Notes: generated by a model not told the origin, from the letters alone. DNA of 64,000 bases from an uncultured Pseudomonadota bacterium (GCA_964597275.1 CAZQXS010000002.1:191-64190), one strand, 5' to 3'; shown: positions 18,254 to 63,211, counted from the first letter of the stretch. Numbers and translations are program-made.

Positions 18254-18263
18254 TGAGATTGCC

Positions 18264-48817: not shown

Positions 48818-50446
48818 TCACGCCCCCTTGGATTCCTGCCGAACTTCGGAGGCCAGCCGCCCCAAGGCGTAGTCGTCAAGGTCGGCGAATTTCATCCACT
48901 CGGCCAACCGGGGCTGCACGCGCCGCACTTCCCGAAAGAGTTCCTGCGCGATGTGGCGGTAGCCCGGATGTCCTTGGGGGGTGCTGCGCAACTCCACGAG
49001 CCATGTCAGCGCCCGCAGGTTGACGTGCATGGACCAGCGGATGCGATAGGCCATCGGCACCACATACTGGGCTTCGTGCGGAAAATCCTCTGCAATCGTC
49101 TCAAACGCTTCCGCCGCCTGCGCCATTGCATCATGGTAGGGCTGGGAGAGCTTGGTGTCTTCCAGTTCCGCTGGGGTGTCGTAGCCGAAGCGTGTGGTCA
49201 GCGGCTGCCGCCATTGCGTGAGCATCCGGTGGCGGTGCAGGTCGCGGTACATGCCGTAGTCGCCCAGCAGGTCGAAGGTGTAGAACACGCGCTCCAACGC
49301 CCGTGGTGGCTTGTGGCGGCGGTGTTCGCGCAGGGCAATGCTTTCCCGGACAAGGCGCTCGCGCTCAGCGTCGGGCAGTTCCCGTACCTGCGCCTGCACC
49401 TGCGGAAGCGGCAATGCGGTGTGTTCGTACAGCAAGGCCGCAATCAGTTTTTCCTCGGCATCCGCATCCCATTCCACCAAACGCACTTCCCCGGAAGATC
49501 CGGGCGGGATCGCAAGCGGCTCGGCACTAGCTGACTCAAGCTGTGCCGCCACCGACCGAATGTGCTGCTGCAAGGCTCCCGTGAAGTCCGCATAGCTTTG
49601 GAAGTGCCGATGCTCCGGATGGGCGCGGCGGATGAAGGACGGGGCGACCTTCGCCAGTTCCTCCCACGCGGTTTGGGCGATGTCCTGAAACTCCTGAAGC
49701 GGTTCAATGCGAAGCCGGGCGATGAGGCTTTCAAAGAACCGTCCGTTACCGAACACACCCATGTTCGTGAGGGTTGCGGCGGGTAGCAGCCCTCGGATGA
49801 GGTCGAAGCCCAAGGCGCGGACTGAGCGTTCGTAAGCGGCCTCCGGCGTGTCCGGATCGCGGGGCAGGCGGCTGCGGACGTACTCGCGGACGGGTTCGTT
49901 GAGTTGAACGTAGGTGTCGAACAGCGTGCGGCAGGCGCTCAGGTAGCGTTCCCGATGCTCCGAATTGAGCAGACGCGGCTCCTTGTAAAAGCGATAATCG
50001 CCCGCAACTTTCTGTCCGAACGAAACATAGCGCGTGGACTTCTCCAGCGGCGAGCCGCCGATGCGGGCGTCTTCCAGCGTTTTGGTCGCCAGAATCGAGA
50101 CTTCCTCCACCGCCAGATGTGCCCCGCCGAGTTCGCCGATGGAGTCGTCCCCGTAGCCATCGAGAATGCGGTCGTAGAACGACTGGGCGCGTCCGACTGC
50201 CAGTGCGGAGGCTTGGGCGGAACTTCCCGTGCCGCCCTGAATCGCGGAAAATTCAGCGGCCTCGTCATCAATGAACTCCCGAAGCAACAGCCGCCGCAAC
50301 CCCAGCGTGGAGCGGGAGTAGCGGGAGAAGAGTGCGCCCTTGATCACCTCCGGGAGGTTCGTGAGCGCAAAGATGGAGCGATCGGTGTTGGTGACGTAGG
50401 GCGCGAGCCGCGCTTGTTCGTCTGGAGTGAAGGACTCGCCAGTCAA
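48818..50446 (-). CDS. thyX: FAD-dependent thymidylate synthase ThyX, long (about 540 aa) two-lobed form
   Basis: ThyX-type RHR motif region (HRHRML..), about 2x canonical ThyX length. First codon is TTG (complement of 50444-50446); there is no in-frame ATG near the N-terminus. Confidence 0.55.
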   Translation of the reverse strand: MTGESFTPDEQARLAPYVTNTDRSIFALTNLPEVIKGALFSRYSRSTLGLRRLLLREFIDDEAAEFSAIQGGTGSSAQASALAVGRAQSFYDRILDGYGDDSIGELGGAHLAVEEVSILATKTLEDARIGGSPLEKSTRYVSFGQKVAGDYRFYKEPRLLNSEHRERYLSACRTLFDTYVQLNEPVREYVRSRLPRDPDTPEAAYERSVRALGFDLIRGLLPAATLTNMGVFGNGRFFESLIARLRIEPLQEFQDIAQTAWEELAKVAPSFIRRAHPEHRHFQSYADFTGALQQHIRSVAAQLESASAEPLAIPPGSSGEVRLVEWDADAEEKLIAALLYEHTALPLPQVQAQVRELPDAERERLVRESIALREHRRHKPPRALERVFYTFDLLGDYGMYRDLHRHRMLTQWRQPLTTRFGYDTPAELEDTKLSQPYHDAMAQAAEAFETIAEDFPHEAQYVVPMAYRIRWSMHVNLRALTWLVELRSTPQGHPGYRHIAQELFREVRRVQPRLAEWMKFADLDDYALGRLASEVRQESKGA

Positions 50447-50498: not shown

Positions 50499-51095
50499 TT
50501 ATGCCGCAGGGAGGCCGACCGAATTGGGCAGTGCCTCGGCTTGGGACTTGGGTTTTGGGAGGTCCGCATCCAAGAACTTAGTGACTTCGTTGGGCTGGTA
50601 CTCGTCCTTGAGCAAATCACGGGTGAAGTCGAAGGTGGTGCGGGACGCATAGGCCATCGAGATCACGCCCGTGTCCATCCGGATCGCCTCCTTCGGGCAC
50701 GCCTCCACGCAAAGCCCACAAAAGACGCAGCGCAGCTCGTCAATGTCGAAGCGCACCGGGTACTTCTCCACCGAAAGATCCGGGTGATCGCCCGCGTCAA
50801 TGTGGATGCACTTGGCCGGACACACGGTCTCACACATGTAGCAGGCCACGCACTTGAGGAAGCCATCCTCCCGGCGCGTGAGCCGATGCCGTCCGCGCCA
50901 GCGCATCGACACGGGCCGCTGCTCTTCCGGATACTGTACCGTCACCACGTCCTTCGCCCCAAAGAGGTTGCGGAAGAAGTGGCTGACGGTCAGCCGGAAT
51001 CCAGTGAAGATCGCCGGCAGATAGAGGGACTCCTTGAATCCGTCCACCCGCTGCATCTGTTTGACTTTGAGTTCCATCGAAAATCCTCCAATCAA
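50499..51095 (-). CDS. nuoI: NADH-quinone oxidoreductase subunit I
   Basis: Two 4Fe-4S ferredoxin motifs (CVACYMCETVCP, CVFCGLCVEACP). Start may be Met1, Met7 (51077) or Met14. Confidence 0.85.
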   Translation of the reverse strand: MIGGFSMELKVKQMQRVDGFKESLYLPAIFTGFRLTVSHFFRNLFGAKDVVTVQYPEEQRPVSMRWRGRHRLTRREDGFLKCVACYMCETVCPAKCIHIDAGDHPDLSVEKYPVRFDIDELRCVFCGLCVEACPKEAIRMDTGVISMAYASRTTFDFTRDLLKDEYQPNEVTKFLDADLPKPKSQAEALPNSVGLPAA

Positions 51096-51109
51096 TTGTT
51101 GATGCTCAA

Positions 51110-51229
51110 TTAATGTGTCGCTTCGGCAGGTTGGCTCTTCGAGGACTTGGCTGCATGCCTTAGGGCATCAAACATAACCAACACAATCCCCCCCAGAAAA
51201 ACCAGAAACGAAACAATCAGCCATTCCAT
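51110..51229 (-). CDS. possible 39-aa single-TM membrane peptide between nuoH and nuoI
   Basis: MEWLIVSFLVFLGGIVLVMFDALRHAAKSSKSQPAEATH. AT-rich, no homology assignable. Confidence 0.2.
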   Translation of the reverse strand: MEWLIVSFLVFLGGIVLVMFDALRHAAKSSKSQPAEATH

Positions 51230-51307
51230 TTTACAAATCCTCCAATTCATCAATTTTTCGATAGGCCGCTTTTCGGATTTCGACATTCTGTGTTCACGAT
51301 ACAAGCC

Positions 51308-52381
51308 TTAGACAAAGATCAGGATGACCGCTGCCGTGGCCACGGTGTTCGCCAGCGAGAGCGGCAGCAGCTTTTTCCAGCCGAGCGCCATCGTCTGGTC
51401 AAAGCGGAACTTCGGCACGGTCCAGCGCAGTTGAATCTGGAACCAGCAACAGAAGACCACGAACACGGTGAACTTGGTGAACTGAAGCACCCGCACCAGC
51501 CACTCCGGGGCACTTTCCCAAAGATGGAGCCACGGCACATGGTAGCCGCCAAAGAAGAGCGTGGTGATCAGCGCGGCAACCCCAACGATGGCCACGTACT
51601 CCGCCAGCATGAACGCCGACCAGCGCATTCCCGAATACTCCAAGAAGTAGCCCGCGACAATTTCGGATTCGCCCTCCGGTGCGTCAAACGGCGCCCGCTT
51701 GGTTTCCGCCACCAAGGCCGTGGTGAAGAGCAGGAAGCCGAGCGGCTGGGTCAGGATTCCCCACTTGGGAATCAGGCTTCCGAACCAGTAGGCGTTTTGG
51801 CCGTCCACGATTTCACTGACACGGGTGGAGCCATAGACCATGAAGATGCCCATCAGCGCAAGCCCCATGAAGACCTCGTAGGAAATCATCTGCGCCGAAG
51901 CGCGGGTGCCGCCGAGCAGGGCGAACTTGCTGTTGGAACTGGCCCCGGCGAGGACTGCGCCATAAACACTCAGGGAGGTGATGGCGAAGATGAAGAGCAG
52001 TCCGGGCTCGATGTCCGTGATCTGAAAGGTGAAGCCTCCGAGGGGTGCAGCAATGGGCACAATCGCAAAAACCGAAACCCCGGCGATCAGCCCAAAGAAC
52101 GGCGCAATCAGGTAGAGGAAGCGATCCGAGCCTTCCGGCATCGTGTCTTCCTTAAAGATGGATTTGAGGCCATCAGCGGCAATGTGCGCCAGCCCACGCC
52201 CCCGGAAGCTGCCAACGTTCGCCCGATTCGGGCCGACCCGATCCTGCACCATCGCGCTCCACTTGCGCTCCATCAGCGTCATCAAAGTGCCGAGCGGCAT
52301 GGCGAACAGCATGATCATGAAAACAATCTTCAGGATCGTCTGGACCAGCGGAATCGAGAGAATTTCAAGCAGTAGGTTCAT
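51308..52381 (-). CDS. nuoH: NADH-quinone oxidoreductase subunit H
   Basis: 357 aa, 8 TM; ...VQDRVGPNRA... and other NuoH/ND1 signature regions. Confidence 0.9.
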   Translation of the reverse strand: MNLLLEILSIPLVQTILKIVFMIMLFAMPLGTLMTLMERKWSAMVQDRVGPNRANVGSFRGRGLAHIAADGLKSIFKEDTMPEGSDRFLYLIAPFFGLIAGVSVFAIVPIAAPLGGFTFQITDIEPGLLFIFAITSLSVYGAVLAGASSNSKFALLGGTRASAQMISYEVFMGLALMGIFMVYGSTRVSEIVDGQNAYWFGSLIPKWGILTQPLGFLLFTTALVAETKRAPFDAPEGESEIVAGYFLEYSGMRWSAFMLAEYVAIVGVAALITTLFFGGYHVPWLHLWESAPEWLVRVLQFTKFTVFVVFCCWFQIQLRWTVPKFRFDQTMALGWKKLLPLSLANTVATAAVILIFV

Positions 52382-52409
52382 TTCCGTTCTCGGCCTTGCG
52401 GCAAAGGGT

Positions 52410-53018
52410 TCACACGTTGTCGAGGATTTGAAAGTGTGCTTCGGTGGGCGCTCGCATCACGCCGTTGATCGGCAGGATGTCCTGCGGGCACGCCGAAAAC
52501 GCGACCACCACATCCACCTCGGCCCGTAGCACCACATAGCTCCCCGGAGTCGAAACCGGAGCCTCCCACGCCAAGCCGCCCTCCACGGTCCACGGGATGT
52601 GCATGAAGAGGTTGAGCGGACTCGGCGTTTCCGGCTCCTTGAGGCCGAGTTCCTTCATGCCTGCGGTGAGGTTGTCGGTGCAGTTGTCGTGATACTCCGT
52701 GCAGCCGAGCAAGCCAAAGCGCGGGTTGTCACACGCCGCCATCAGGGTGTCGTGAACGCCTCCGGACGTGTCCTCCATCAAGGTGAGGATCGGGCGTCGC
52801 TGGTTGGTCACGAGCGTGTCGCCCACCTCTGGACGCAGTTTCATGTAGTAGGGACGGCTGTGTTCCATGGACATGAACTCCGACAGGTCATCGGCCCGGA
52901 AGGCCCAAGTGTCCACCACCTGCGCTCCATGCGTGTTGATGACCTTCACGCCCTGTCCGGCCTTCACCTGAGCCGCCTTGCCTCGGCGGGCGGGGATGGT
53001 GATCACTTCGTTTGACAT
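52410..53018 (-). CDS. DUF1989 ('urea carboxylase-associated') family protein, lone copy
   Basis: 202 aa; family otherwise found as tandem pairs next to urea/guanidine carboxylase (carboxyguanidine deiminase subunits). Confidence 0.55.
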   Translation of the reverse strand: MSNEVITIPARRGKAAQVKAGQGVKVINTHGAQVVDTWAFRADDLSEFMSMEHSRPYYMKLRPEVGDTLVTNQRRPILTLMEDTSGGVHDTLMAACDNPRFGLLGCTEYHDNCTDNLTAGMKELGLKEPETPSPLNLFMHIPWTVEGGLAWEAPVSTPGSYVVLRAEVDVVVAFSACPQDILPINGVMRAPTEAHFQILDNV

Positions 53019-53031
53019 TTCACTCTCTTTA

Positions 53032-53331
53032 CTAAATCGTAGGCTGAATGGCTTTGTTCGGCCAACTGTTCTCCACCGTAAACGACTGACCCAACGTTCT
53101 CAAGTGGCTGAATTCCTGCTCCCGCAGTTTTCCCCGGATTTCTTCAAAGGATTTCACCACATCCTCGGCATACAACTTTTCTCCACAATGCAGGCACACC
53201 TCCGCAGAGACTTTCATGGAAACCGTGTGTCCCCCACCGCTCAGGAGCTTTTCGACCTGCTTGCTCTGCAAGTCACCACCACAGACAGGGCATTTTTCAA
53301 ATGGCCTCATTTTTTCATTCTCATTTTCCAA
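53032..53331 (-). CDS. YgiT-type zinc-finger protein (MqsA-N-like; putative antitoxin)
   Basis: CPVCGG...CLHCGE zinc ribbon. 99 aa, low GC. Overlaps the upstream DUF4258 gene by 25 bp. Confidence 0.6.
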   Translation of the reverse strand: MENENEKMRPFEKCPVCGGDLQSKQVEKLLSGGGHTVSMKVSAEVCLHCGEKLYAEDVVKSFEEIRGKLREQEFSHLRTLGQSFTVENSWPNKAIQPTI

Positions 53332-53621
53332 TCAACCCACCGATCAGGATCTGGCCGATAGACCGTGATCAAAACAGCCCACGAGTTTTCTTGATTGTAG
53401 GCCCAAACACTATGGATTGGCTCCCCTGTAAAATTCTTACCCAGAATCAGACAGCTTGGATAAGGTTTGTCGGTTGGGTAATCCTCAATGATTTCGCCTT
53501 GAATCACCGAAGTGTAAATTTCTTCGTAGGTCAGATTGTCATCAACCGCCTCCTCGTCTGCGTGATTAGTGATTCTTACTTGAGTCTCCCGGATTGCCTG
53601 AATGATACTCTCTATCTCCAT
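53307..53621 (-). CDS. DUF4258-domain protein (putative toxin partner of YgiT zinc-finger protein)
   Basis: Start at MEIESIIQAIRETQVRITNHADEE (Met54 of ORF 53307..53780). 104 aa, low GC, matching DUF4258 length and pattern. Confidence 0.5.
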   Translation of the reverse strand: MEIESIIQAIRETQVRITNHADEEAVDDNLTYEEIYTSVIQGEIIEDYPTDKPYPSCLILGKNFTGEPIHSVWAYNQENSWAVLITVYRPDPDRWVDWKMRMKK

Positions 53622-53640
53622 CCTTACCGATCCAGTTCCC

Positions 53641-54603
53641 CTACGGGGTCTGTCCGCCAAGAATCCCTGCCAGCTTGTCCGAATCCACGTTGCCCCCGGA
53701 CACGACACAAACCACGTTTCCGCCTCCCGCTTGGCCGGAGAGTGCGGCCGCAACCGGGGCGGCTCCTGCCCCCTCAGCAATCACGTGATTCCGTTCGGCG
53801 ACAATCCTGAGCGCGGAAGTCACTTCCTCCAGCGAAGTCACCAAGGAGCCATCCAGCAACCGACTCGCCAGCGGGAACATCTCCGGGAAGACCCTGGGAG
53901 AACTGATGCCATCCACCAAGCTAGGCGTGTGCTCGACTTCCGTCGGCTCGCCCGCAGCCAATGATGCGGCAAACGGCGCTCCCGTCTCCACCTCAGAGGC
54001 GAATAACTTCACCTCCGGTTTGAGCGAGCGCAGGGTGGAGGCAATACCGCAACTGAGACCACCGCCTCCATACGGGGTGATGATGGTCTCCACCTCGGGC
54101 AAATCCTCAAGGATTTCAAGGCCAATCGTGCCATTGCCCGCCATCACGGTCGGATTGCTGAACGGGTGAACAAAGAACCCCTCCATCCCTTCGAGCCTGT
54201 GAGTCTGGGCGACCTGCATCAATTCGGCGAACGAAGTTTTGACAACCTCCCCTCCGAGCCGTGCAATTGCGGCCAGCTTTGACTCGGGAGCGCGTTCAGG
54301 CACGACGACGGTGCAGGGTACCCCCAAGTGCTTGGCGCACCAAGCAACCGCTTGTCCGGTATTCCCAGGACTGACCGTCCACAATCCTTGACTGAGCTGT
54401 TCCTTGCTGGCCAAGCTCACGGTGTTAAACACCCCCCGCAGCTTGAAGGAGCCTACGGGCTGCAAATTCTCCAGCTTCAGGTAGATTCGGGCAGGCGCAT
54501 CCTCCACGTTCAACCGCACCAGTGGAGTGCGAACCGCCACGCCAGCAATCCTGCTCTGTGCCGCTCGCACCTCCTCAATGCGAATCGGTTCATGAGGCTT
54601 CAC
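53641..54603 (-). CDS. PLP-dependent threonine/serine dehydratase family enzyme (fold-type II)
   Basis: LKLENLQPVGSFKLRG (PLP-Lys motif), GGGGL glycine loop; 320 aa. Confidence 0.8.
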   Translation of the reverse strand: MKPHEPIRIEEVRAAQSRIAGVAVRTPLVRLNVEDAPARIYLKLENLQPVGSFKLRGVFNTVSLASKEQLSQGLWTVSPGNTGQAVAWCAKHLGVPCTVVVPERAPESKLAAIARLGGEVVKTSFAELMQVAQTHRLEGMEGFFVHPFSNPTVMAGNGTIGLEILEDLPEVETIITPYGGGGLSCGIASTLRSLKPEVKLFASEVETGAPFAASLAAGEPTEVEHTPSLVDGISSPRVFPEMFPLASRLLDGSLVTSLEEVTSALRIVAERNHVIAEGAGAAPVAAALSGQAGGGNVVCVVSGGNVDSDKLAGILGGQTP

Positions 54604-54773
54604 AAAGTACCTTCCTTACCGTTGAAGTTAAGCGGGCAATTGTGAAAACAATTTGATCATCATCCAGATAATCGCAACCACCCCGGCAAAAGTAGCTCCC
54701 AATATCCACTGGATCAAAGTGATTCGTCCTTCAATACCGATCATGTCCGCTTTTGCGACAAGCACGGTCTCCC

Positions 54774-56003
54774 TCACCGATCCAACTCTCCTCCGATCAT
54801 GTTGATGGAGCCGAAGATCGGCACGATGTCGGCGATGTAGTGTCCAACGGTCATGTGCTTCATGGCCTGGACGTAGTTGAAGCACGGGGGCCGCAACCGG
54901 ACCCGCACGGGGTCGCCGGAGCCGTCCGAGACAACATAGAAGCCGACCTCGCCATTGCCGCCCTCGACGGCTGTGTAGGCTTCCCCTTCCGGAGGCTGGT
55001 GGCCTTCCATGACCATCTTGAAGTGCTCGATCAGCCCCTCGATGTTGCCGTAAACCTCCTTCTTGTCCGGATAATGCACCCAGCGCTGGTCGGTCATGAT
55101 CGGGCCGTAGGGCATCTTGTCGGCGGCCTGCTCGATGATGGAAATGCTCTGGCGCATTTCCTCCATGCGCACGAGATAGCGGTCGAAGCAGTCCCCGACG
55201 GTGCCCACCGGAATCTCGAAATCAAGCTCGTCATAAACCGAGTGGGCATCGGAACGCCGCACGTCAAACGGCACCCCGCAGGCTCGCAACATCGGCCCGG
55301 AGAAACCGAAGGAAAGCGCGTCTTCCTTGGAGATCGGCCCCACGTCCTTGACGCGGTCAATGAAAATCTTGTTCTTCGAGAGCAGCTTGTCGCATTCGTC
55401 AAGGATGTCCTTCACCTTATCGAGCCGTTCCTGCAAGTCGTCAAGGAAACCGTCCGGAAGGTCGGTGGCGTTGCCGCCGAAGCGTGTCCAGTTGGTCGTC
55501 AGCCGTGCCCCGCTGACTTGCTCGACGAGTTCCCACAGGTACTCGCGGGCCTTGATGAACCAGAGGAAGAAGGTGAAGGCTCCCACTTCCATCGCCGCCG
55601 CGCCCACGCAGGTGAGGTGGTCGGTGATCCGGGAGATCTCGCCCATGATGACGCGGGTGAACTCAGCACGGCGCGGCACCTCGACCCCGTAGAGCTTTTC
55701 CACCGCCATCGAGTAGCCGATGTTGTTGAGCAGAGGCGAGACGTAGTTGAGGCGGTCGGTGTAGGGAATCACCTGAATCCACTTCGAGTTCTCGGACTCC
55801 TTCTCGAAGCCCCGATGCAGGTAGCCGATTTCCGGAACCATGTCCACGATCATCTCGCCATCCACATAGGTGGTGAAGCGCACGATTCCGTGCATGGCGG
55901 GATGGGCCGGCCCCACCTCAATCGCCATGATCGAGGTGTCCTCGTCCGCTTCGATAGGAATTCCGGAAAGCCGGGGTTCTGCGAGTGCGGTGTCCATGCT
56001 CAT
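54774..56003 (-). CDS. nuoD: NADH-quinone oxidoreductase subunit D
   Basis: 409 aa; [NiFe]-hydrogenase large-subunit-like fold with NuoD motifs. 4-bp overlap with nuoC. Confidence 0.9.
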   Translation of the reverse strand: MSMDTALAEPRLSGIPIEADEDTSIMAIEVGPAHPAMHGIVRFTTYVDGEMIVDMVPEIGYLHRGFEKESENSKWIQVIPYTDRLNYVSPLLNNIGYSMAVEKLYGVEVPRRAEFTRVIMGEISRITDHLTCVGAAAMEVGAFTFFLWFIKAREYLWELVEQVSGARLTTNWTRFGGNATDLPDGFLDDLQERLDKVKDILDECDKLLSKNKIFIDRVKDVGPISKEDALSFGFSGPMLRACGVPFDVRRSDAHSVYDELDFEIPVGTVGDCFDRYLVRMEEMRQSISIIEQAADKMPYGPIMTDQRWVHYPDKKEVYGNIEGLIEHFKMVMEGHQPPEGEAYTAVEGGNGEVGFYVVSDGSGDPVRVRLRPPCFNYVQAMKHMTVGHYIADIVPIFGSINMIGGELDR

Positions 56004-56548
56004 GCCCTTCCGTACTGGTTGCGTTCGTCAATTTCTCGCAGTTCGATGATCGGCTGCTGGCGGTCCATGGGATAGTCCTTGCGGAGGGGGTGCCCTTCGA
56101 ACTGGTCGTACATGAGCAGGCGCGTGAGGTTGGGGTGTCCGGTGAACTCGATGCCGAACATGTCCCAGCACTCGCGCTCGTACCAGTTGACGACCTCCCA
56201 AAGCTCGTGGATCGAATCCACCCGGCAGTCGTCTTCCGGCAGCGGGGTCTTGACGCGCAGGCGGTGGCCGTGGGTGAGCGACTTGAAGTGATAGACCACT
56301 TCAAAGCGCGGATCGCGGCCTTGTTCAAAATAATCGACGGCGGTGAGGTCCACCATCAGCTCGAACTTGCAACGCGGGTCGTCGCGCAGGAACTGGCAGA
56401 CGGGCACAATCGCGTCGCGCTTGATGCGGACGGTCTCATCGCCCCGGTGGTTGTGGAAGTCAAGCAGCGTGTCTGGAAACTGCTGCTGGAGCAGGGCGGT
56501 GAGCATCCCCGGGGCTTCAGATTCCGAAGCGGTAGTGGTCTTAGTCAT
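56000..56548 (-). CDS. nuoC: NADH-quinone oxidoreductase subunit C
   Basis: 182 aa; NuoC/30-kDa subunit motif ...ERECWDMFGI.F.GHP.LRR.L. Confidence 0.85.
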   Translation of the reverse strand: MTKTTTASESEAPGMLTALLQQQFPDTLLDFHNHRGDETVRIKRDAIVPVCQFLRDDPRCKFELMVDLTAVDYFEQGRDPRFEVVYHFKSLTHGHRLRVKTPLPEDDCRVDSIHELWEVVNWYERECWDMFGIEFTGHPNLTRLLMYDQFEGHPLRKDYPMDRQQPIIELREIDERNQYGRA

Positions 56549-56580
56549 GGGCGTGGGTCAGGACGGATTTTACCGCAGGG

Positions 56581-57285
56581 TCAGGACTCTTCGCGGAGTG
56601 CCTCTTTCTTGCGCTGATCGGCAGGGGAGTCGTAGCCCATGTGCGGGCGCACGACCACGTTTTCATCGGAGTACACATAGCCGGGCTTGGTGCTGCGGTT
56701 GCTCTTGGGGTTCTGCATGTTCTCCAGCACCTGCTTGTCCGAAATCTGGAAGTAGCGGCTGAGTTGATCCAGCTTTTGCTCGCGGTGCCGAGCCATCTCC
56801 GGGTTGAGCATCCCGCTCTTGACGGTCGGCCCGTCGTTCTGGATGCGGTGCTGCAACTCCATCAGGCCATCCAGCACCGCTTCCGGACGCGGCGGGCAGC
56901 CCGCGATGTACACGTCCACTGGAATCAGGCGGTCAATGCCCTGAAGCACCGAATAGTTCTGGTAGAAGCCGCCGGAGGACGCACACGCTCCAAAGGCCAT
57001 CACCCACTTCGGCTCCGCCATCTGGTCGTAGATCGTCTTCAGCACCGGAGCCATCTTGTGCGTGATCGTGCCCACCACCCAGAGGACATCCGACTGCCTA
57101 GGCGAAAAACGCGGGATTTCCGCGCCAAAGCGCGAGATGTCGTAGTGGGAACACGCCGCCGCCATGTACTCCATCCCGCAACATGCGGTCACGAAGGGGT
57201 ACTGGAACAGCGAGAATTTGCGCGACCAGTTGACCACGTTGTCGAAGGTGGTGGTCAGAAAGTCACCGTAGTTTGCAGCAGCCAT
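56581..57285 (-). CDS. nuoB: NADH-quinone oxidoreductase subunit B (with C-terminal extension)
   Basis: CCGMEYM...GACASSGG...GCPPRPE cluster N2 ligands; about 60-aa extra C-terminal tail. Confidence 0.9.
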
Positions 57286-57309
57286 GATTCTCCTAAGTTC
57301 GTGGTTCTG

Positions 57310-57672
57310 TCACTCCCATTCGAGCGCACCTTTTTTCCAATCATAGACCAACCCGAGCGTCAGCACCAAAATGAACACCATGCTGGCGATGAAGCCGAAC
57401 CAGCCGAGTTCCCGGATCTGCACCGTCCACGGGTAGAGAAAGACGATCTCGACGTCGAACACCAGAAACACCAGCGCGGTCATGAAGAACTTGACGTCGT
57501 AGCGGTGCCCCTCCATGCCCTCACGAATGAATCCGGATTCAAACGGAGCCGCCTTTTCACGAGTGCGCAGCTTGGGGCCGATCACCAAACCAACGATGGT
57601 GAACACCCCCGCAAGGCCAACGCCCACAAGGATCAGGATCAGGATGGGAAGGTAGTCGTTGGTGATGGTCAT
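57310..57672 (-). CDS. nuoA: NADH-quinone oxidoreductase subunit A
   Basis: 120 aa, 3 TM; ...PFESGF...RYDVKFFMTALVFLVFDVEIVFLYPW. Confidence 0.85.
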   Translation of the reverse strand: MTITNDYLPILILILVGVGLAGVFTIVGLVIGPKLRTREKAAPFESGFIREGMEGHRYDVKFFMTALVFLVFDVEIVFLYPWTVQIRELGWFGFIASMVFILVLTLGLVYDWKKGALEWE

Positions 57673-57755
57673 GCAACGTTTCTTGGAGTGGACGAACAGG
57701 TCCGGTTAAAGTCTTCGCAGTATTTCATCGGCCCCTTGGATTGTCAATGGAATTC

Positions 57756-59696
57756 CTAGCGCACTGCCGTACCCGGAGCCGCGGCTTCCGGTGCCTCGAC
57801 CACAGTGATCGTGATACCGTCGTCCGACGCGAGGACCATGCCTTCCGAAAGCTCCCCGCGCAGCTTAGCAGGCTTGAGGTTGGCCACGACCACCACGCGC
57901 TTGCCGAGCATTTGCTCCGGAGCGTAGAACTCCGCCACGCCGGAAACGATGCTGCGCAAGCGTCCCTCGCCCAAATCCACCTGCGAAACCAGCAGCTTGT
58001 CCGATTTCTCCACACGGCGGCACTCCCGGATGACCCCCACCTTCAACTCAATCTGCTGGAAGGTGTCAATACCGATTTCGTTTCCAGAGTCCGCAGCCTC
58101 AGCTTTTGGCTTGGGGGCGGCTTCGGGCTTGGCTTTTTTCTCTGGTTTGGGAGCCGATTGTGTGGAAGTCGCCTGCAATTTAGGAAACAGCGGGAACGGT
58201 TCGGGAAGCGTCGTGCCCGGCTGCAAACCTCCGGGAGTCAGTTGCTCAAACGCAAGCGTCTGCTCGGACAAGCCCAGCAGCCGACTCGCCTCTGCCATCT
58301 TTTCCGGCATAACCGGCTGGAGCAGTCCGACCAGAATGCGCGAGCAGTCCAACGCCGTGTACAGCACCGTTCCGAGCAGTTCGTGCTGGTCCGGCTCCTT
58401 GGCCAGCTTCCACGGCTTGTGTTCGTCAATGTACTTGTTGACCGCACTCGCGAGTTGGGTCACCAGTTCCAGCGCACGATGCGGCTGAAACTCGCGCACC
58501 CGTTCCCGGACGCGGCCCACGCCTTCCACAAACTCGCGGCGCAGGTTGGTTTCCAACTCGGCCAGTTCGCCGCACAGGGGCACCTGCCCGTCAAAGTTCT
58601 TACGGGAAAGCGTGATCGAGCGGCTGATGAGGTTGCCGAGGTTGTTGGCGAGATCACCGTTGTAGCGGGCAAGCGCGAGTTCTTCCGTGAAATTCGAGTC
58701 CTCCCCAAAGCTCATTTCGCGCAACAGGAAATAGCGCAGTGCGTCCACGCCCACGGTGTCCTTCAGGTCCAGCGGGCTGACGACGTTCCCCAGCGACTTG
58801 CTCATCTTGCTGCCGCCGATCACCCAGTGTCCGTGAACCACCAGCTTTTGGTAAACGGGCATCCCTGCCGCCTTGAGCATGCACGGCCAGTAGATGCCGT
58901 GCGTCTTGAGGATGTCCTTGCCGATGATGTGGTGGCAGTGCGGCCAGAACTTCTGGTAGTTCGGAGCGTCCGGCCAGCCGAGGGCATTGGGGTAGTTCAG
59001 CAGGGCATCGAACCAGACGTAGGTGACGAACTCACGGTCGAATGGCAACTCAATGCCCCAACTCAGACGGCTTTTGGGACGCGAAATACAGAGGTCTTGC
59101 AGAGGGGCTTCGAGAAAACGCAACAGTTCGTTGCGATAGCGTCCGGGATAGACCAACTCCGGATTGCCCTCCAACAACTGCACCAGCCAGTCCTGATAGG
59201 CGCTCATCCGAAAGAAGTAATTCTGCTCCTTGTGCGGTTGGGGCGGCTTTTGGTGGTCCGGACAGTCGCCCTCCGGGGTCAGTTCCGACTCGTCCAAGAA
59301 ACGCTCGCAGCCGACGCAGTACAGCCCCTCGTATTCCTTGAGGTAGATTTCGCCCTGATCGTGGATTTTCTGCAACACCGCCTGCACCCGCGACTTGTGT
59401 TCCGGGTCGGTCGTGCGGATGAACTGGTCGTGCGCAATGTGCAACGGCGGCCACAATTCCCGGAACTCCGAAGCCATGCGGTCCACGAATTCCTGCGGGG
59501 CGATTCCGGCCTGTGCCGCCGACTCCGCGATCTTCTGCCCGTGTTCGTCCGTGCCCGTCAGAAAATACGCCTCCTCGCCAAACAGCCGCCGATAGCGCAC
59601 AAACACATCCGTCGCAATCGTCGTGTACGCATGCCCGATGTGCGGGTGGCTGTTGACGTAGTAGATCGGAGTGGTGACGTAGAAAGTTTCGCTCAT
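57756..59696 (-). CDS. metG: methionine--tRNA ligase with C-terminal EMAP-like tRNA-binding domain
   Basis: HIGH motif (HPHIGHAY), zinc knuckle CVGCERF...CPDH, KMSKS. 646 aa. Confidence 0.9.
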   Translation of the reverse strand: MSETFYVTTPIYYVNSHPHIGHAYTTIATDVFVRYRRLFGEEAYFLTGTDEHGQKIAESAAQAGIAPQEFVDRMASEFRELWPPLHIAHDQFIRTTDPEHKSRVQAVLQKIHDQGEIYLKEYEGLYCVGCERFLDESELTPEGDCPDHQKPPQPHKEQNYFFRMSAYQDWLVQLLEGNPELVYPGRYRNELLRFLEAPLQDLCISRPKSRLSWGIELPFDREFVTYVWFDALLNYPNALGWPDAPNYQKFWPHCHHIIGKDILKTHGIYWPCMLKAAGMPVYQKLVVHGHWVIGGSKMSKSLGNVVSPLDLKDTVGVDALRYFLLREMSFGEDSNFTEELALARYNGDLANNLGNLISRSITLSRKNFDGQVPLCGELAELETNLRREFVEGVGRVRERVREFQPHRALELVTQLASAVNKYIDEHKPWKLAKEPDQHELLGTVLYTALDCSRILVGLLQPVMPEKMAEASRLLGLSEQTLAFEQLTPGGLQPGTTLPEPFPLFPKLQATSTQSAPKPEKKAKPEAAPKPKAEAADSGNEIGIDTFQQIELKVGVIRECRRVEKSDKLLVSQVDLGEGRLRSIVSGVAEFYAPEQMLGKRVVVVANLKPAKLRGELSEGMVLASDDGITITVVEAPEAAAPGTAVR

Positions 59697-59705
59697 TTGA
59701 TGCGT

Positions 59706-59999
59706 TCAGTCCGAGGGCAACACAATCCCCGGCTCTTCCGGGTGGGGACGATAGAGGACCAGCGTTTTGCCGATCACCTGCACCACCGCCACCTCCTCGC
59801 GTCCGTCCAACTCGGCGGCGCACTCCTTCTGCGAGATCGGACTGTTTTCCATCACCTTCACCTTGATCAACTCGTTGGCGAGCAGGCGGGCTTCGATCTG
59901 CTTGAAGGCGTCGTCGGTGAGTCCGGCCTTGCCGATGTTGACCACGGGTTTGAGGGCGTGGGCGAGTCCGCGCAGGTAGCGTTTTTGTGATCCGGTCAT
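59706..59999 (-). CDS. yhbY: ribosome assembly RNA-binding protein YhbY (CRS1/YhbY domain)
   Basis: 97 aa; LTGSQKRYLRGLAH...VNIGKAGLTD...KVK motif set. Confidence 0.75.
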   Translation of the reverse strand: MTGSQKRYLRGLAHALKPVVNIGKAGLTDDAFKQIEARLLANELIKVKVMENSPISQKECAAELDGREEVAVVQVIGKTLVLYRPHPEEPGIVLPSD

Positions 60000-60138
60000 G
60001 CGGAAGGTGCAGTCGTCAGTGGTCAGTGGTCGGTTGCTCGATGCGGCGGGCGCAGCGAGTCCCTCAAGCCTTGATCTCCAAGCAAGCAGGCTACCAAGCG
60101 GCTCTGCGCCTCACAAGCCGATTCCCCCCCAATACATT

Positions 60139-61248
60139 TCAGCGCAGGGGCGGGTAGATGAAGCGGAAGTGGATCACCAGTTCGTCCTCCGTGAAGTCCT
60201 CTGGCAGCGCAGGCAGTTGCCCGGAAGCCAGCAGAGCGGAGATCACCGAGGCTTCCATCTCCGGCGAGGCCAGCACGACGTTGGTGACTTCGTAGGAATT
60301 CAGCATTCCAGAGCGGGACACGCGCACCAGCACAAAGACATCGCCTCCCTGCGGACGCAGGCCGCGTGCGTAATCCAGCGGCGGGTTGTTGCCCCAGGTG
60401 TAGCGCAGCGTCTTCGCCCAGCGGCCCATGTACGATTCATAGGGCCAGTCGTAGGAGTTGAGCGTGAAGAAGCCCCCGCCGGGCTGCCCGGAGTCTCCCA
60501 TGCCCGGAGGTGGGGGAATGGCCGATGGTTGGTTTTGGGAAAGCGCTGGATTCGCGGGCTTGGGCAGTTCCCCCCCAGCTTGGAGCGCCCCGGAGAGTTT
60601 CAGGAGTTTCGGAGGCTCCGTCATGCCTTCGCGCAGAAACCACTGCTTCGGAAGCGGAGGAGGCTCCGCCACCTGTGGCACCACTCCGGCGGACTGCGGC
60701 TGGGGCGGGAGCGCGGGCTGACCCGGACTCCGTGCGGGACTCGGCAGATTGGGCTCCAGCCGCGCCAGCAGCTTTTCTTCAGATTCGGCGGATTCCGCAT
60801 CCGTTTCCGCAGGTTGGGGCGTGGGGGCTGCGGCATCCGTGGACCGTTGCGTTTGAGGTTGTTCCGCAGGTTTCGGCTCCGGGGCGGGAGGCTTAGGTTC
60901 GGGCGGGCGGGAAGCGCTCTTGAGCTGCTTCATGCTCAACTGCTCCGCCGGAGTTTCCTGAATGAGGTCTTCGAGTTGATCAGTTTCCAGTTCCTCCACG
61001 GGAGGTTGCGGGACGGGGGGCTTTTCCGCAGGCGACGGCGCGGCAAGCGGTTGCGATGAAAGTTCTGGCTGGGAACCCGGAAGCATGGGCGCGGGCGGTG
61101 TCCAGTGTTCCAGTTCGATGAGCAGGGGATTTTCCAGAGGCGGCGGGGGCCGGAACCACTGCACCACCAGCGGAATCAGCGCGACGTGGAGTCCAAGGAC
61201 CAGCCCAAGGATGCCCAGCCGGAGCGGCAGCGGCGTCCCGGTCGGCAT
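60139..61248 (-). CDS. TonB-family energy transducer (N-terminal TM anchor, Pro-rich linker, C-terminal TonB domain)
   Basis: N-terminal hydrophobic helix, extended P/E/K-rich spacer, C-terminal beta-rich domain (DVFVLVRVSRSGMLNSYEV...). Preferred over antisense ORF 59998..61059(+). Confidence 0.6.
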   Translation of the reverse strand: MPTGTPLPLRLGILGLVLGLHVALIPLVVQWFRPPPPLENPLLIELEHWTPPAPMLPGSQPELSSQPLAAPSPAEKPPVPQPPVEELETDQLEDLIQETPAEQLSMKQLKSASRPPEPKPPAPEPKPAEQPQTQRSTDAAAPTPQPAETDAESAESEEKLLARLEPNLPSPARSPGQPALPPQPQSAGVVPQVAEPPPLPKQWFLREGMTEPPKLLKLSGALQAGGELPKPANPALSQNQPSAIPPPPGMGDSGQPGGGFFTLNSYDWPYESYMGRWAKTLRYTWGNNPPLDYARGLRPQGGDVFVLVRVSRSGMLNSYEVTNVVLASPEMEASVISALLASGQLPALPEDFTEDELVIHFRFIYPPLR

Positions 61249-61251
61249 CGC

Positions 61252-61536
61252 TCACGCCTCAATGACGCGGGGCACCTTGAAGAAGCGGTTTTCCAGATAG
61301 GGGCTGAACTGCTCCGGGGAAACCGGAGAGTCGGCGGCGCGGTCCTCCCGTACCCGTGGGGCCAACACCGATTCGGCAGCCTCGGCGTTTTCCGGAAGTT
61401 CCACCGCGTTGAGCCGCTCAAAGTAATCGAGAATGGTACCGAACTGCTGGGCAAACTCCTGCTCCTCCTCCGGAGTCAGTTCCAGCGAGGCGAGCTTGGC
61501 GATCTTGCGGACGTCCTCGATGCTGAAGGCGCTCAT
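61252..61536 (-). CDS. gatC: Asp-tRNA(Asn)/Glu-tRNA(Gln) amidotransferase subunit C
   Basis: 94 aa; MSAFSIEDVRKIAKLASLELTPEE...ILDYFERLN typical GatC. Confidence 0.8.
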   Translation of the reverse strand: MSAFSIEDVRKIAKLASLELTPEEEQEFAQQFGTILDYFERLNAVELPENAEAAESVLAPRVREDRAADSPVSPEQFSPYLENRFFKVPRVIEA

Positions 61537-61970
61537 GCAGACCCCATCAGCCGGACCTCGGCCTGCGCGACCACCTTCTCGTCCACAAAGGCTTTGGCGC
61601 TGAAGACCCAGAACTGCTTCTTGCGGTTGGCCAGCGTGGACTCGATCACCAACTGGTCTCCGGGCACGACCTGCTTGCGGAACTTCGCGTCGTTGACTCC
61701 CGCATAAAACGCCATCAGTCCGTGGTCCTCCGGCATCACCGAGTCAATGATGAACGCGCTCGTCTGCGCCATCGCCTCCAGTTGCAGCACGCCCGGAAAC
61801 ACTGCCATCTCCGGGAAGTGCCCTTGGAAAATCTGCTCGTTGATGGTCACGTTCTTGACCGCCCTGCAGAACTCCCCCTCGCGCACCTCCAGCACGCGGT
61901 CAATCATCAAAAAGGGGTAGCGGTGCGGCAGAATCTTGCGGATTGCTTCAATGTCCTTGGTCACGGTCAC
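61533..61970 (-). CDS. fabZ: 3-hydroxyacyl-[ACP] dehydratase FabZ
   Basis: LPHRYPFLMIDRV...HFPEMAVFPGVL hot-dog fold with catalytic His/Glu. Confidence 0.9.
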   Translation of the reverse strand: MTVTKDIEAIRKILPHRYPFLMIDRVLEVREGEFCRAVKNVTINEQIFQGHFPEMAVFPGVLQLEAMAQTSAFIIDSVMPEDHGLMAFYAGVNDAKFRKQVVPGDQLVIESTLANRKKQFWVFSAKAFVDEKVVAQAEVRLMGSA

Positions 61971-62491: not shown

Positions 62492-62651
62492 AAACGTCCT
62501 GTGTTCCATACCCCGATGAGTCTAACGGACTGACGCAGGAACTCAAGCCCGGAAGCACTCAGGGTGCCGCCGCCCCTGCGCTTGACTTCTGAAACAGGAT
62601 TGCTAGCCTTTGCACACTCAAGTACTTCATGAAAAAATACAGAAACCTTGA

Positions 62652-63209: not shown

Positions 63210-63211
63210 AG

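What the first reader, a model, noticed from the sequence alone, without database searches (positions are those of the whole stretch)
50499..57672. Partial, mosaic complex-I operon: nuoABCD - [PLP dehydratase, toxin-antitoxin pair, DUF1989] - nuoHI, with no nuoEFG or nuoJKLMN
On the minus strand nuoA, B, C, D and nuoH, I are present with tight or overlapping junctions. The NADH-dehydrogenase module nuoEFG is replaced by three unrelated cargo genes: a threonine/serine-dehydratase-like PLP enzyme (53641..54603), a DUF4258 + YgiT-zinc-finger pair (53032..53621) and a lone DUF1989 protein (52410..53018). Downstream of nuoI the operon stops, and thyX follows instead of nuoJKLMN. This could be an 11-subunit-type (EFG-less) NDH-1/Fpo-like complex whose operon has been split and invaded. 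It could also be a decaying second nuo copy. Either way, the co-transcription of amino-acid/guanidino-metabolism genes inside a respiratory operon is unusual.
Basis: partly seen in the sequence, partly recalled or inferred. Interest (0 to 1): 0.7.

Follow-up and report, generated by a model that had tools for sequence, protein, structure and literature searches.

The report
Split complex-I locus with inserted cargo
This is one half of an intact but split NADH dehydrogenase (complex I) gene set in a marine SAR324 bacterium; one species recently gained four unrelated genes between two of its genes, so it is ordinary genome plasticity and not a new kind of respiratory complex.

Summary
On the minus strand lie nuoA-B-C-D, then a PLP dehydratase-like gene, a DUF4258/YgiT toxin-antitoxin pair and DUF1989, then nuoH, nuoI and thyX.

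The organism is a SAR324 cluster bacterium. The "missing" modules are not missing. On the same contig and strand, 7-14 kb beyond the window's right end, lie nuoE-F-G-J-K-L. Only nuoM and nuoN were not located.

In about 40 SAR324 species-level genomes the order metG-nuoABCD-nuoH-nuoI-thyX is conserved, and nuoD usually sits 12-60 bp from nuoH. In the most abundant lineage, nuoEFGJKL-ompH-fabZ-gatC-yhbY-metG-nuoABCDH-pdxH-nuoI-thyX lies on one strand. So nuoABCDHI is a phylum-wide sub-cluster of a split, 14-subunit-type complex I. It is not an EFG-less or decaying copy: nuo dN/dS is 0.02-0.10.

The 2.4-kb cargo is specific to this species. The nearest relatives carry only DUF1989 or a 33-codon DUF1989 remnant. 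The toxin gene is frameshifted in 4 of 6 assemblies. The PLP gene has no close SAR324 orthologue. Other SAR324 lineages carry other small inserts (HicA, DUF4160/DUF2442, cupin, PdxH) at other nuo junctions.

Co-transcription of the cargo is inferred, not shown. Interest is low to moderate.

The parts
57719..57747 (-). Sigma-70-like promoter match (TTGACA-17-AATACT with TG) 47 bp upstream of nuoA. Candidate promoter of the nuoABCD...HI sub-cluster.
   Evidence: Consensus match only; SAR324 promoter rules are unknown.
57310..57672 (-). nuoA (120 aa)
   Evidence: Pfam PF00507, E 1e-33. 62-93% identical orthologues at the same position in SAR324 loci. dN/dS 0.05-0.10.
56581..57285 (-). nuoB (234 aa), with an extra C-terminal tail of about 80 residues. 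N2 cluster cysteines are present ([17 protein letters not shown]).
   Evidence: TIGR01957, 217 bits against cutoff 143, matching residues 9-150 only. Sequence read. dN/dS 0.04-0.08.
56000..56548 (-). nuoC (182 aa). Overlaps nuoD by 4 nt.
   Evidence: TIGR01961, 151 bits against cutoff 122.
54774..56003 (-). nuoD (409 aa)
   Evidence: NF004739, 488 bits against cutoff 360, and TIGR01962, 480 against 459. dN/dS 0.03-0.05.
54604..54773 (-). 170-bp spacer between nuoD and the cargo. It holds a possible 49-aa one-helix ORF (54628-54777) that some pipelines call. It marks the left boundary of the species-specific insertion.
   Evidence: Homology to L009 and L011 stops at the nuoD stop codon. The ORF is called in L002, L004 and L006. 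No family match.
53641..54603 (-). Fold-type II PLP enzyme of the threonine/serine dehydratase / serine racemase family (320 aa, no ACT domain). The SFK lysine motif and GGGG loop are present. Cargo found only in this species.
   Evidence: PF00291, 240 bits. Best NCBIfam equivalogs all score below cutoff. Closest PDB entries are TdcB 2GN0 (E 9e-56) and serine racemases. The nearest non-self homologues are at most 73% identical and lie in unrelated contexts.
53307..53621 (-). DUF4258 protein (104 aa), a putative RelE/ParE-superfamily type II toxin. Intact here. Frameshifted by a 1-nt T insertion in 4 of 6 other assemblies of the same species.
   Evidence: PF14076, 83 bits against cutoff 25. Family listed as a BECR-fold TA toxin of unknown activity in PMC11980606. 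Frameshift seen. Local GC is 0.48-0.50 against about 0.60 in the flanks.
53032..53310 (-). YgiT/MqsA-type zinc-ribbon protein (92-99 aa), the putative antitoxin. It overlaps the toxin stop by 4 nt. No HTH domain was detected.
   Evidence: TIGR03831, 35 bits against cutoff 20. MqsA models match only their N-terminal half and score below cutoff. DUF4258-MqsA fusions are known (PMC11980606).
52410..53018 (-). Stand-alone DUF1989 protein (202 aa). This is the older cargo, shared with one sister species and reduced to a remnant in another.
   Evidence: PF09347, 168 bits. PDB 3ORU, E 5e-61. L008, L100 and L101 carry a 93% identical orthologue at the same site. L007 keeps only the last 33 codons. dN/dS 0.075 with dS 0.49, like its neighbours.
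51308..52381 (-). nuoH (357 aa). Homology to relatives without the insert resumes exactly at its start codon.
   Evidence: PF00146, 331 bits. dN/dS 0.02-0.04.
51078..51307 (-). 230-bp low-GC spacer specific to this species. It holds a 64-aa ORF (51110-51304) with one predicted hydrophobic helix. The sister species have only about 8-10 bp here.
   Evidence: No Pfam or NCBIfam match. It is not a pdxH remnant.
50499..51077 (-). nuoI (192 aa from the conserved MELKVK start). Both CxxCxxCxxxCP motifs are present.
   Evidence: NuoI NCBIfam models, E 1e-34, just below the subfamily cutoff (110.6 against 113). Fer4 domains. Gene calls. dN/dS 0.02-0.04.
48818..50446 (-). thyX (542 aa, double length). 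It is the conserved downstream neighbour of nuoI across SAR324 and marks the normal end of the sub-cluster.
   Evidence: PF02511. Follows nuoI in about 35 SAR324 loci.
57756..62509 (-). Conserved housekeeping block that separates the two nuo sub-clusters in SAR324: ompH (61967-62509), fabZ (61533-61964), gatC (61252-61536), a species-specific TonB_C-like gene (60139-61248), yhbY (59706-59999) and metG (57756-59696).
   Evidence: Gene calls and Pfam. Same order in L025, L027, L098 and L099, without the 369-aa gene. TonB_2 match is weak.
62652..64000 (+). Start of an 8.4-kb opposite-strand block: RibD_C, DAO, a five-gene LIV-type ABC transporter and a 251-aa ORF. In this species it separates ompH from nuoL-K-J-G-F-E. 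Those nuo genes lie at about 70.9-77.1 kb in window coordinates, outside the window.
   Evidence: L086-L092. The block is absent in L098, L099, L025 and L027, where nuoL abuts ompH.

Best explanation
The window holds the nuoABCD-HI sub-cluster of a complete-type, NADH-oxidising complex I in a SAR324 cluster bacterium. This sub-cluster encodes the Q-module plus NuoH and NuoA.

In this phylum the complex-I genes are permuted and split. The order is nuoE-F-G-J-K-L, then five housekeeping genes (ompH, fabZ, gatC, yhbY, metG), then nuoA-B-C-D-H-I, then thyX. nuoM and nuoN are somewhere else.

In the lineage of this window, the normally 12-60-bp nuoD|nuoH junction was invaded in at least two steps.
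1. A stand-alone DUF1989 gene came first. It has been kept under purifying selection in two species and lost from a third.
2. Later, only in this species, a PLP-dependent Thr/Ser-dehydratase-like gene and a DUF4258/YgiT type II toxin-antitoxin cassette arrived. The toxin is already frameshifted in part of the population.

The cargo lies on the same strand, with short spacers and no terminator-like signals. nuoH and nuoI are therefore most likely still transcribed by read-through from the promoter upstream of nuoA, and the cargo is expressed as a passenger. This last step is inferred. The cargo has no demonstrated role in respiration.
For: Gene identities.

Organism: NuoD is 68-96% identical in about 40 SAR324 MAGs and SAGs.

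Conserved order: metG-nuoABCD-nuoH-nuoI-thyX recurs across these loci. The nuoD|nuoH gap is 12-60 bp in most. It is 280 bp in L007, 857 bp in L008, L100 and L101, and 2392 bp only in this species.

Insertion boundaries fall exactly at the nuoD stop and the nuoH start.

Same contig and strand: nuoE(162)-F(419)-G(561)-J(170)-K(100)-L(635). NuoE, NuoF, NuoK and NuoL pass curated NCBIfam cutoffs.

One-strand super-locus nuoEFGJKL-ompH-fabZ-gatC-yhbY-metG-nuoA-BCD-H-pdxH-I-thyX in the most abundant SAR324 lineage, and in L025 and L027.

Selection: nuo dN/dS is 0.02-0.10, and DUF1989 is 0.075 with the same dS as its neighbours.

Cargo history: the PLP gene has no homologue above 73% identity outside this species. 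The TA region has low GC. The toxin frameshift is polymorphic.

Assembly: the same junctions appear in at least 7 independent assemblies.

Transcription signals: a promoter-like site lies upstream of nuoA and no terminator-like sites lie in the spacers.

Literature: split complex-I clusters are common across bacteria (PMC12361115).
Against: - nuoM and nuoN were not found in the window or in about 94 kb of contiguous sequence examined. Completeness of the membrane arm in this genome is therefore not shown.
- No expression data were available. Read-through and co-transcription are inferred from spacing and from simple consensus scans that may not suit SAR324.
- The order of the insertion events is a parsimony argument from three species only.
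- No flanking repeats, integrase or other insertion mechanism were found.
Confidence: 0.85

Rival explanations
1. It is an 11-subunit, EFG-less (NDH-1/Fpo-like) complex that takes electrons from a donor other than NADH, with its operon broken up.
For: nuoD is followed by nuoH with no nuoEFG between them in all SAR324 loci. This is the gene order typical of 11-subunit operons such as L085, L079 and L080.
Against: nuoE, nuoF (TIGR01959, 566 bits against cutoff 559) and nuoG sit directly upstream of nuoJKL on the same contig and strand, and likewise in another SAR324 lineage. NuoD scores best against the NuoD equivalogs and not FpoD or NdhH.
Confidence: 0.03
2. It is a decaying second nuo copy that is being eroded by insertions.
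For: Foreign genes sit inside the cluster, and within the window the cluster looks truncated.
Against: All six nuo ORFs are full length and their Fe-S ligands are intact. dN/dS is 0.02-0.10 against two sister species. The same six-gene cluster is conserved across the phylum. Only one nuoD locus per SAR324 genome appeared in the genome scan.
Confidence: 0.02
3. The mosaic is an assembly chimera joined at about 50450 or 54700.
For: None found.
Against: Identical junctions occur in three JGI and three ENA metagenome assemblies and in an NCBI MAG. Intermediate states exist in sister species.
Confidence: 0.01
4. The cargo is functionally tied to complex I. DUF1989, the PLP enzyme or PdxH could act as accessory or assembly factors, or supply a metabolite. 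Their position inside the operon would then be selected.
For: DUF1989 has been kept under purifying selection at this site in two species. pdxH sits between nuoH and nuoI in at least 14 SAR324 loci. Cargo genes have their own Shine-Dalgarno-like sequences.
Against: The cargo differs between lineages and junctions: HicAB, cupin, DUF4160/DUF2442, PdxH, DUF1989, PLP. DUF1989 was lost in L007 while the nuo genes stayed intact. Of 80 metagenome loci with DUF1989 relatives at 66% identity or more, only the two of the L008 type are next to nuo genes, and none has a close PLP homologue nearby. Relatives of the PLP gene lie in unrelated contexts.
Confidence: 0.07
5. SAR324 complex I truly lacks NuoM and NuoN and has a shortened membrane arm (A, H, J, K, L only).
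For: No NuoM or NuoN homologue occurs in any of the SAR324 loci held, including about 94 kb around this locus.
Against: Only a small part of each genome was visible. Published SAR324 genome surveys report complex I as present, but without subunit detail (PMC9031357 and PMC4782131). Split nuo clusters are common.
Confidence: 0.04

Closest known systems
Canonical 14-subunit bacterial complex I (nuoA-N operon of E. coli, Paracoccus, Thermus)
   Same: It has the same subunit families, with conserved cofactor ligands: NuoA, B, C, D, H and I in the window, and NuoE, F, G, J, K and L on the same contig. An NADH-oxidising N-module is present.
   Different: The gene order is permuted and split (EFGJKL ... 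ABCDHI ... M and N elsewhere). Five housekeeping genes sit between the parts, and lineage-specific inserts sit at the A|B, D|H and H|I junctions. NuoB has a C-terminal tail of about 80 aa, and NuoG is a short 561-aa form.
Split (non-clustered) complex-I gene sets described in the genome-wide HMM survey (Genome Biol Evol 2025, PMC12361115), and the scattered ndh genes of cyanobacteria
   Same: The complex-I genes are distributed over more than one cluster. That survey states that most clades hold a mix of split and single-cluster complex I. From my own knowledge, cyanobacterial ndhCKJ (A-B-C) and ndhAIGE (H-I-J-K) are likewise separate.
   Different: The particular SAR324 partition (EFG joined to JKL, ABCD joined to HI) and its conserved housekeeping spacer were not mentioned in the papers I could search. 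SAR324 does not occur in that paper's text.
11-subunit complex-I-like enzymes lacking NuoEFG (e.g. Desulfitobacterium hafniense, PMC11238625; Bacteroidetes)
   Same: nuoD is immediately followed by nuoH.
   Different: Here nuoEFG exist and are linked to nuoJKL. The defining absence of the N-module is not met.
DUF4258 (PF14076) - MqsA/YgiT type II toxin-antitoxin modules of the RelE/ParE (BECR-fold) superfamily (PMC11980606)
   Same: A DUF4258 protein is followed, with a 4-nt overlap, by a small YgiT zinc-ribbon protein. DUF4258-MqsA pairings and fusions are catalogued.
   Different: The putative antitoxin is only 92-99 aa and shows no HTH domain. Activity is untested for the whole family. The toxin is frameshifted in part of this population.
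Catabolic threonine dehydratase TdcB / serine racemase family, and the DUF1989 family (PDB 3ORU; N-domain of TMAO demethylase; UAAP/CgdAB-type proteins)
   Same: Clear sequence membership at superfamily level.
   Different: No equivalog cutoff is reached for either protein. DUF1989 lacks the paralogue partner and the carboxylase of the urea/guanidine systems, and the GcvT domain of Tdm. Substrates are unknown.

Membership tests
14-subunit NADH:quinone oxidoreductase (complex I, Nuo14) | Q-module subunits NuoB, C, D and I with N2 and 2x[4Fe-4S] ligands | tested here: met
   NCBIfam and Pfam hits. Cysteine motifs read.
14-subunit NADH:quinone oxidoreductase (complex I, Nuo14) | N-module NuoE, NuoF and NuoG encoded in the genome | tested here: met
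   Same contig, outside the window. NuoE TIGR01958 scores 165 against 142. NuoF TIGR01959 scores 566 against 559. NuoG TIGR01973 scores 446 against 470, slightly below cutoff because it is a short form.
14-subunit NADH:quinone oxidoreductase (complex I, Nuo14) | Membrane subunits NuoA, H, J, K and L | tested here: met
   A and H in the window. J, K and L on the same contig.
14-subunit NADH:quinone oxidoreductase (complex I, Nuo14) | Antiporter-like subunits NuoM and NuoN | tested here: inconclusive
   Not found in the window or in about 94 kb of contiguous sequence, nor in any SAR324 locus held.
11-subunit EFG-less complex-I-like / Fpo-like enzyme | No NuoE, F or G associated with the complex | tested here: not met
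   nuoEFG lie directly upstream of nuoJKL.
Decaying or pseudogenised gene cluster | Disrupted ORFs or relaxed selection (dN/dS near 1) | tested here: not met
   ORFs are intact. dN/dS is 0.02-0.10 against L007 and L008.
Type II toxin-antitoxin module, DUF4258 / MqsA-like | Toxin domain PF14076 | tested here: met
   83 bits against cutoff 25.
Type II toxin-antitoxin module, DUF4258 / MqsA-like | Adjacent small partner with a YgiT/MqsA zinc ribbon; overlapping genes | tested here: met
   TIGR03831 scores 35 against 20. 4-nt overlap.
Type II toxin-antitoxin module, DUF4258 / MqsA-like | C-terminal HTH DNA-binding domain of MqsA | tested here: not met
   MqsA models align only to their N-terminal half (profile positions 2-62 of 131) and score below cutoff. 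The protein is 92-99 aa.
Type II toxin-antitoxin module, DUF4258 / MqsA-like | Toxicity of the toxin and its neutralisation by the partner | not testable with these tools
   Needs expression experiments. The family's activity is listed as unknown (PMC11980606).
Threonine/serine ammonia-lyase (TdcB/IlvA) equivalogs | Score above the curated equivalog cutoff | tested here: not met
   Best is TIGR01127 at 243 against 379. NF006094 scores 214 against 331. Superfamily membership only (PF00291).
Urea/guanidine-associated DUF1989 pairs (UAAP1/UAAP2) | Score above cutoff, plus a paralogous partner and a carboxylase nearby | tested here: not met
   TIGR03424 scores 103 against 285. There is no partner or carboxylase in the locus.

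The most novel reading that the evidence does not exclude
The intergenic junctions of the SAR324 complex-I clusters (A|B, D|H, H|I, L|ompH) may be recurrent landing sites. Toxin-antitoxin cassettes and small metabolic genes (pdxH, cupin, DUF1989, a PLP dehydratase) would settle there and be expressed as passengers of a strongly and constantly transcribed respiratory operon. This would be a phylum-wide case of operon hitchhiking. A stronger version is that one of these passengers, PdxH or DUF1989, has become a true accessory factor of SAR324 complex I.
Probability: 0.1. Interest if true: 0.5.

Novelty: new member of a known kind. Interest (0 to 1): 0.25.

Why it matters
Practical point: a window-sized view of SAR324 genomes makes complex I look partial or EFG-less when it is not. 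Automated metabolic reconstructions that require a contiguous nuo operon could mis-score this abundant dark-ocean phylum.

Biological point: the locus gives a dated series of operon invasion. Most species have an empty junction. Others carry DUF1989 only, a DUF1989 remnant with toxin-antitoxin-like debris, or the full cargo with a toxin that is decaying within the population. An essential respiratory operon therefore tolerates 2.4 kb of foreign genes between nuoD and nuoH.

This fits the reported finding that nuo gene order is not essential for assembly in E. coli (Oppermann et al. 2022; seen only as a title in the reference list of PMC12361115, not read). It does not reveal a new type of enzyme.

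Tried and rejected
- Search for nuoM and nuoN. I ran tblastn with NuoL, M and N from three organisms and with SAR324 NuoL against the window and all 179 loci. I also walked the contig to the left and to the right. Neither gene was found.
- Insertion mechanism. I looked for flanking direct or inverted repeats around 52382-54773. Only short Shine-Dalgarno-like similarities turned up, with no att-like repeats and no integrase or transposase.
- Spacers in the sister species. By eye, the L007 and L008 nuoD|nuoH spacers look like HigB-like and HigA-like N-terminal remnants. Pfam and NCBIfam gave no significant match. This stays an untested impression.
- pdxH remnant. I tested whether the 230-bp nuoH|nuoI spacer in the window is a remnant of pdxH. 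There was no similarity.
- Link between the PLP enzyme and DUF1989. Neither the neighbours of PLP homologues nor 78 DUF1989 loci outside the nuo context show the pairing, so I rejected a conserved link.
- P0122. This 549-aa top PLP hit is an unrelated tandem-domain protein.
- Literature. SAR324 papers report complex I as present but give no subunit or gene-order detail.

Full report
OBSERVATION

The minus strand of 50499-57672 encodes, in order:
- nuoA (57310-57672)
- nuoB (56581-57285)
- nuoC (56000-56548)
- nuoD (54774-56003)
- a 320-aa PALP-family enzyme (53641-54603)
- a 104-aa DUF4258 protein (53307-53621)
- a 92-99-aa YgiT zinc-finger protein (53032-53310/53331)
- a 202-aa DUF1989 protein (52410-53018)
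- nuoH (51308-52381)
- nuoI (50499-51077, from the conserved MELKVK start)
- a 542-aa thyX, which follows nuoI

The ORFs come, and the assignments from Pfam and NCBIfam. nuoB, nuoC and nuoD pass curated cutoffs. nuoC and nuoD overlap by 4 nt, and the other nuo spacers are 24-32 bp. tblastn with NuoE, F, G, J, K, L, M and N queries taken from canonical operons finds nothing else in the 64-kb window.

NOT AN ASSEMBLY ARTEFACT

A look-up of the exact NuoD sequence returns 23 contigs. The six shown come from three JGI and three ENA assemblies, and all carry the same gene order and junctions. An NCBI MAG, GCA_036337075.1, does too.

ORGANISM AND CONSERVED CONTEXT

A scan of one genome per GTDB species with NuoD gives about 40 loci at 68-96% identity. 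Nearly all are labelled SAR324 cluster or "Deltaproteobacteria" MAGs and SAGs.

tblastn of the window's proteins against these loci shows a phylum-wide order of metG-nuoA-B-C-D-H-I-thyX. The nuoD|nuoH gap is:
- 12-60 bp in most loci
- 100-204 bp in five loci
- 280 bp in L007
- 857 bp in L008, L100 and L101
- 2392 bp only in the window's species

thyX follows nuoI in about 35 loci. So "nuoD next to nuoH" and "no nuoJ after nuoI" are the normal SAR324 state. They are not a peculiarity of this window.

WHERE THE "MISSING" GENES ARE

In eleven SAR324 loci the region upstream of metG, on the same strand, holds nuoG-nuoJ-nuoK-nuoL followed by ompH-fabZ-gatC-yhbY.

I walked the window's own contig from RibD_C and then from NuoL. 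This shows nuoE (162 aa), nuoF (419), nuoG (561), nuoJ (170), nuoK (100) and nuoL (635), tightly packed on the nuoA strand. In window coordinates they lie at about 70.9-77.1 kb, just outside the window. NuoE, NuoF, NuoK and NuoL pass curated NCBIfam cutoffs, and NuoG falls slightly short as a short form.

In this species an 8.4-kb opposite-strand block lies between nuoL and ompH. It holds a 251-aa ORF, a five-gene LIV-type ABC transporter, DAO and RibD_C. A 369-aa TonB_C-like gene lies between gatC and yhbY.

In the most abundant SAR324 lineage both of these are absent. There the whole set nuoEFGJKL-ompH-fabZ-gatC-yhbY-metG-nuoA-nuoBCD-nuoH-pdxH-nuoI-thyX lies on one strand in about 16 kb, with the same upstream flank (DUF3501, CCG protein, rubrerythrin, ilvHB).

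The enzyme is therefore a normal NADH-oxidising complex I whose genes are permuted and split.

nuoM and nuoN were not found. They are absent from the window, from about 94 kb of contiguous sequence, and from every SAR324 locus held. I could not search the rest of the genome. Published SAR324 surveys report complex I as present, but without subunit detail (PMC9031357, PMC4782131).

NOT DECAYING

Against the two sister species, L008 and L007, dN/dS for nuoA, B, C, D, H and I is 0.02-0.10, with dS of 0.46-0.83. All ORFs are intact. The Fe-S cysteine motifs of NuoB and NuoI are present.

THE CARGO IS A RECENT, STEPWISE INSERTION

Nucleotide homology to relatives without an insert (L009, L011) stops at the nuoD stop codon and resumes at the nuoH start codon.

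- L008, and the metagenome contigs L100 and L101, carry only DUF1989 at this site. It is 93% identical in protein sequence. Its dN/dS is 0.075 and its dS is 0.49, like its neighbours, so it was inherited vertically and is under selection.
- L007 keeps only the last 33 codons of DUF1989.
- The spacers upstream of DUF1989 in L007 and L008 are unrelated to the window's sequence. By eye they resemble HigB-like and HigA-like fragments. Profile searches do not confirm this.
- The PLP gene and the DUF4258/YgiT pair occur only in the window's species.
- The closest non-self relatives of the PLP enzyme are at most 73% identical. Where they are named, they come from Chloroflexota, Armatimonadota and other groups, and they lie in unrelated contexts.
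- The TA region has GC of 0.48-0.50 against about 0.60 around it.
- A single T insertion frameshifts DUF4258 in four of six otherwise identical assemblies. The toxin is therefore dispensable and is decaying within the population.
- No flanking repeats or recombinase genes were found.

WHAT THE CARGO GENES ARE

DUF4258 (PF14076) is listed among the BECR-fold RelE/ParE-superfamily type II toxins. Its activity is unknown, and DUF4258-MqsA fusions are known (PMC11980606). The partner here has the YgiT zinc ribbon but no detectable HTH domain.

The PLP enzyme is a fold-type II Thr/Ser dehydratase / racemase-family protein without an ACT domain. Its closest solved structure is TdcB 2GN0, followed by serine racemases. 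It is below every equivalog cutoff, so its substrate is unknown.

DUF1989 is closest to the stand-alone protein 3ORU (E 5e-61), and more distantly to the N-domain of TMAO demethylase. It does not meet the UAAP models and lacks their partners. Among 80 metagenome loci with relatives at 66% identity or more, only the two of the L008 type are next to nuo genes, and none has a close PLP homologue nearby. I found no evidence that the three cargo units form a pathway or relate to respiration.

THE SAME THING HAPPENS ELSEWHERE IN THE PHYLUM

Other SAR324 lineages carry different small genes at other nuo junctions:
- A HicA toxin (PF07927, E 1e-10) with a HicB-like partner, or remnants of these, between nuoA and nuoB.
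- A cupin at the same nuoA|nuoB junction.
- pdxH between nuoH and nuoI in at least 14 loci.
- A DUF4160/DUF2442 pair between nuoH and nuoI in L025.

The window's species also has its own 230-bp low-GC spacer between nuoH and nuoI, holding a 64-aa ORF with one hydrophobic helix. It is not a pdxH remnant.

Insertions also occur between the housekeeping genes of the super-locus. I therefore cannot say that nuo junctions are preferred sites.

HOW IT MOST LIKELY WORKS

Shown:
- The gene content and its conservation.
- The selection on the nuo genes and on DUF1989.
- The insertion boundaries.
- The toxin polymorphism.

Inferred:
- The sub-cluster is transcribed from a promoter upstream of nuoA. A TTGACA-17-AATACT match lies at 57747-57719.
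- Transcription reads through the cargo to nuoH and nuoI. The cargo spacers are 13-28 bp apart from one of 170 bp, everything is on one strand, and there are no terminator-like hairpins in the spacers.
- The cargo is expressed as a passenger.

Split complex-I clusters are common in bacteria (PMC12361115). That paper's reference list also cites Oppermann et al. 2022, whose title states that nuo gene order is not essential for assembly in E. coli; I did not read that paper. Both points fit such an arrangement being tolerated.

VERDICT

The interpretation as a partial, EFG-less or decaying complex is not supported. "Split and invaded" is correct.

This is a new member of known kinds: a split complex-I locus that has taken up lineage-specific cargo, including a toxin-antitoxin cassette. 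Interest is low to moderate. Its main values are as a caution for metabolic annotation of SAR324 and as a tidy natural series of operon invasion.

Noticed in passing
window 46152-48709 and beyond (L001 17352-20513): Directly downstream of thyX lies a URC-type cluster: a GTP cyclohydrolase II-like protein with a GTP_CH_N domain, then DUF1688, then a uracil phosphoribosyltransferase. From my own knowledge this resembles the URC1/URC4/URC6 uracil-catabolism set of yeasts and some bacteria. It is conserved in L008 and L009.
   Followed up: partly
window 48818-50446: thyX is 542 aa, about twice the usual ThyX length. It is the conserved neighbour of nuoI across SAR324 (540-545 aa in L025, L027 and L098).
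   Followed up: no
window 56581-56830 (C-terminal third of nuoB); also nuoI 50499-50600: NuoB carries a C-terminal extension of about 80 residues beyond the NuoB family model, which matches residues 9-150 of 234. NuoI has a C-terminal tail of about 35 residues. Both are conserved in other SAR324 lineages (L025, L027).
   Followed up: no
window 51110-51304 and 54628-54777: Two species-specific small ORFs (64 aa and 49 aa) lie in the nuoH|nuoI and nuoD|PLP spacers. Each has one hydrophobic helix and neither matches a family. They could be small membrane proteins or chance ORFs in inserted DNA.
   Followed up: partly
L003-L006, position 12596 (between window 53411 and 53412): A single T insertion frameshifts the DUF4258 toxin gene in four of six assemblies of the same population. 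The flanking sequence is identical and the site is not a homopolymer run.
   Followed up: yes
L014, L017, L018, L020, L022-L024, L027, L039, L044, L057, L098, L099 (between nuoH and nuoI): A full-length pdxH (pyridoxamine 5'-phosphate oxidase, 205-212 aa as called) sits between nuoH and nuoI in a large SAR324 clade. It is absent from the window, and no pdxH was found anywhere in the 64 kb.
   Followed up: partly
L018 8261-8639; L015, L022, L044; L023, L039, L044 (between nuoA and nuoB); L025 12476-12967: HicB-like and HicA cassettes or their remnants, and a small cupin gene, lie between nuoA and nuoB. A DUF4160/DUF2442 pair lies between nuoH and nuoI in L025. Toxin-antitoxin-type cassettes recur at different nuo junctions in different SAR324 lineages.
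   Followed up: partly
L045 7155-8687 and L058 11342-12937: In the two closest non-SAR324 relatives by NuoD (52-55% identity), a NuoG-like gene alone sits between nuoD and nuoH. No nuoE or nuoF lies there and no nuoJKL follows nuoI. This is another unusual gene order.
   Followed up: no
window 16667-19655: An MttB-superfamily methyltransferase-like ORF (528 aa) and an aminotransferase (463 aa) sit next to mutL. With the DAO gene and the LIV-type ABC transporter just past the window's right end, this hints at methylated-amine or amino-acid catabolism. The assignments for 16667-19655 are by eye only.
   Followed up: no
window 60139-61248: A 369-aa proline-rich protein with a weak TonB C-terminal match is inserted between gatC and yhbY in this species only. 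It is absent from L025, L027 and L098.
   Followed up: partly
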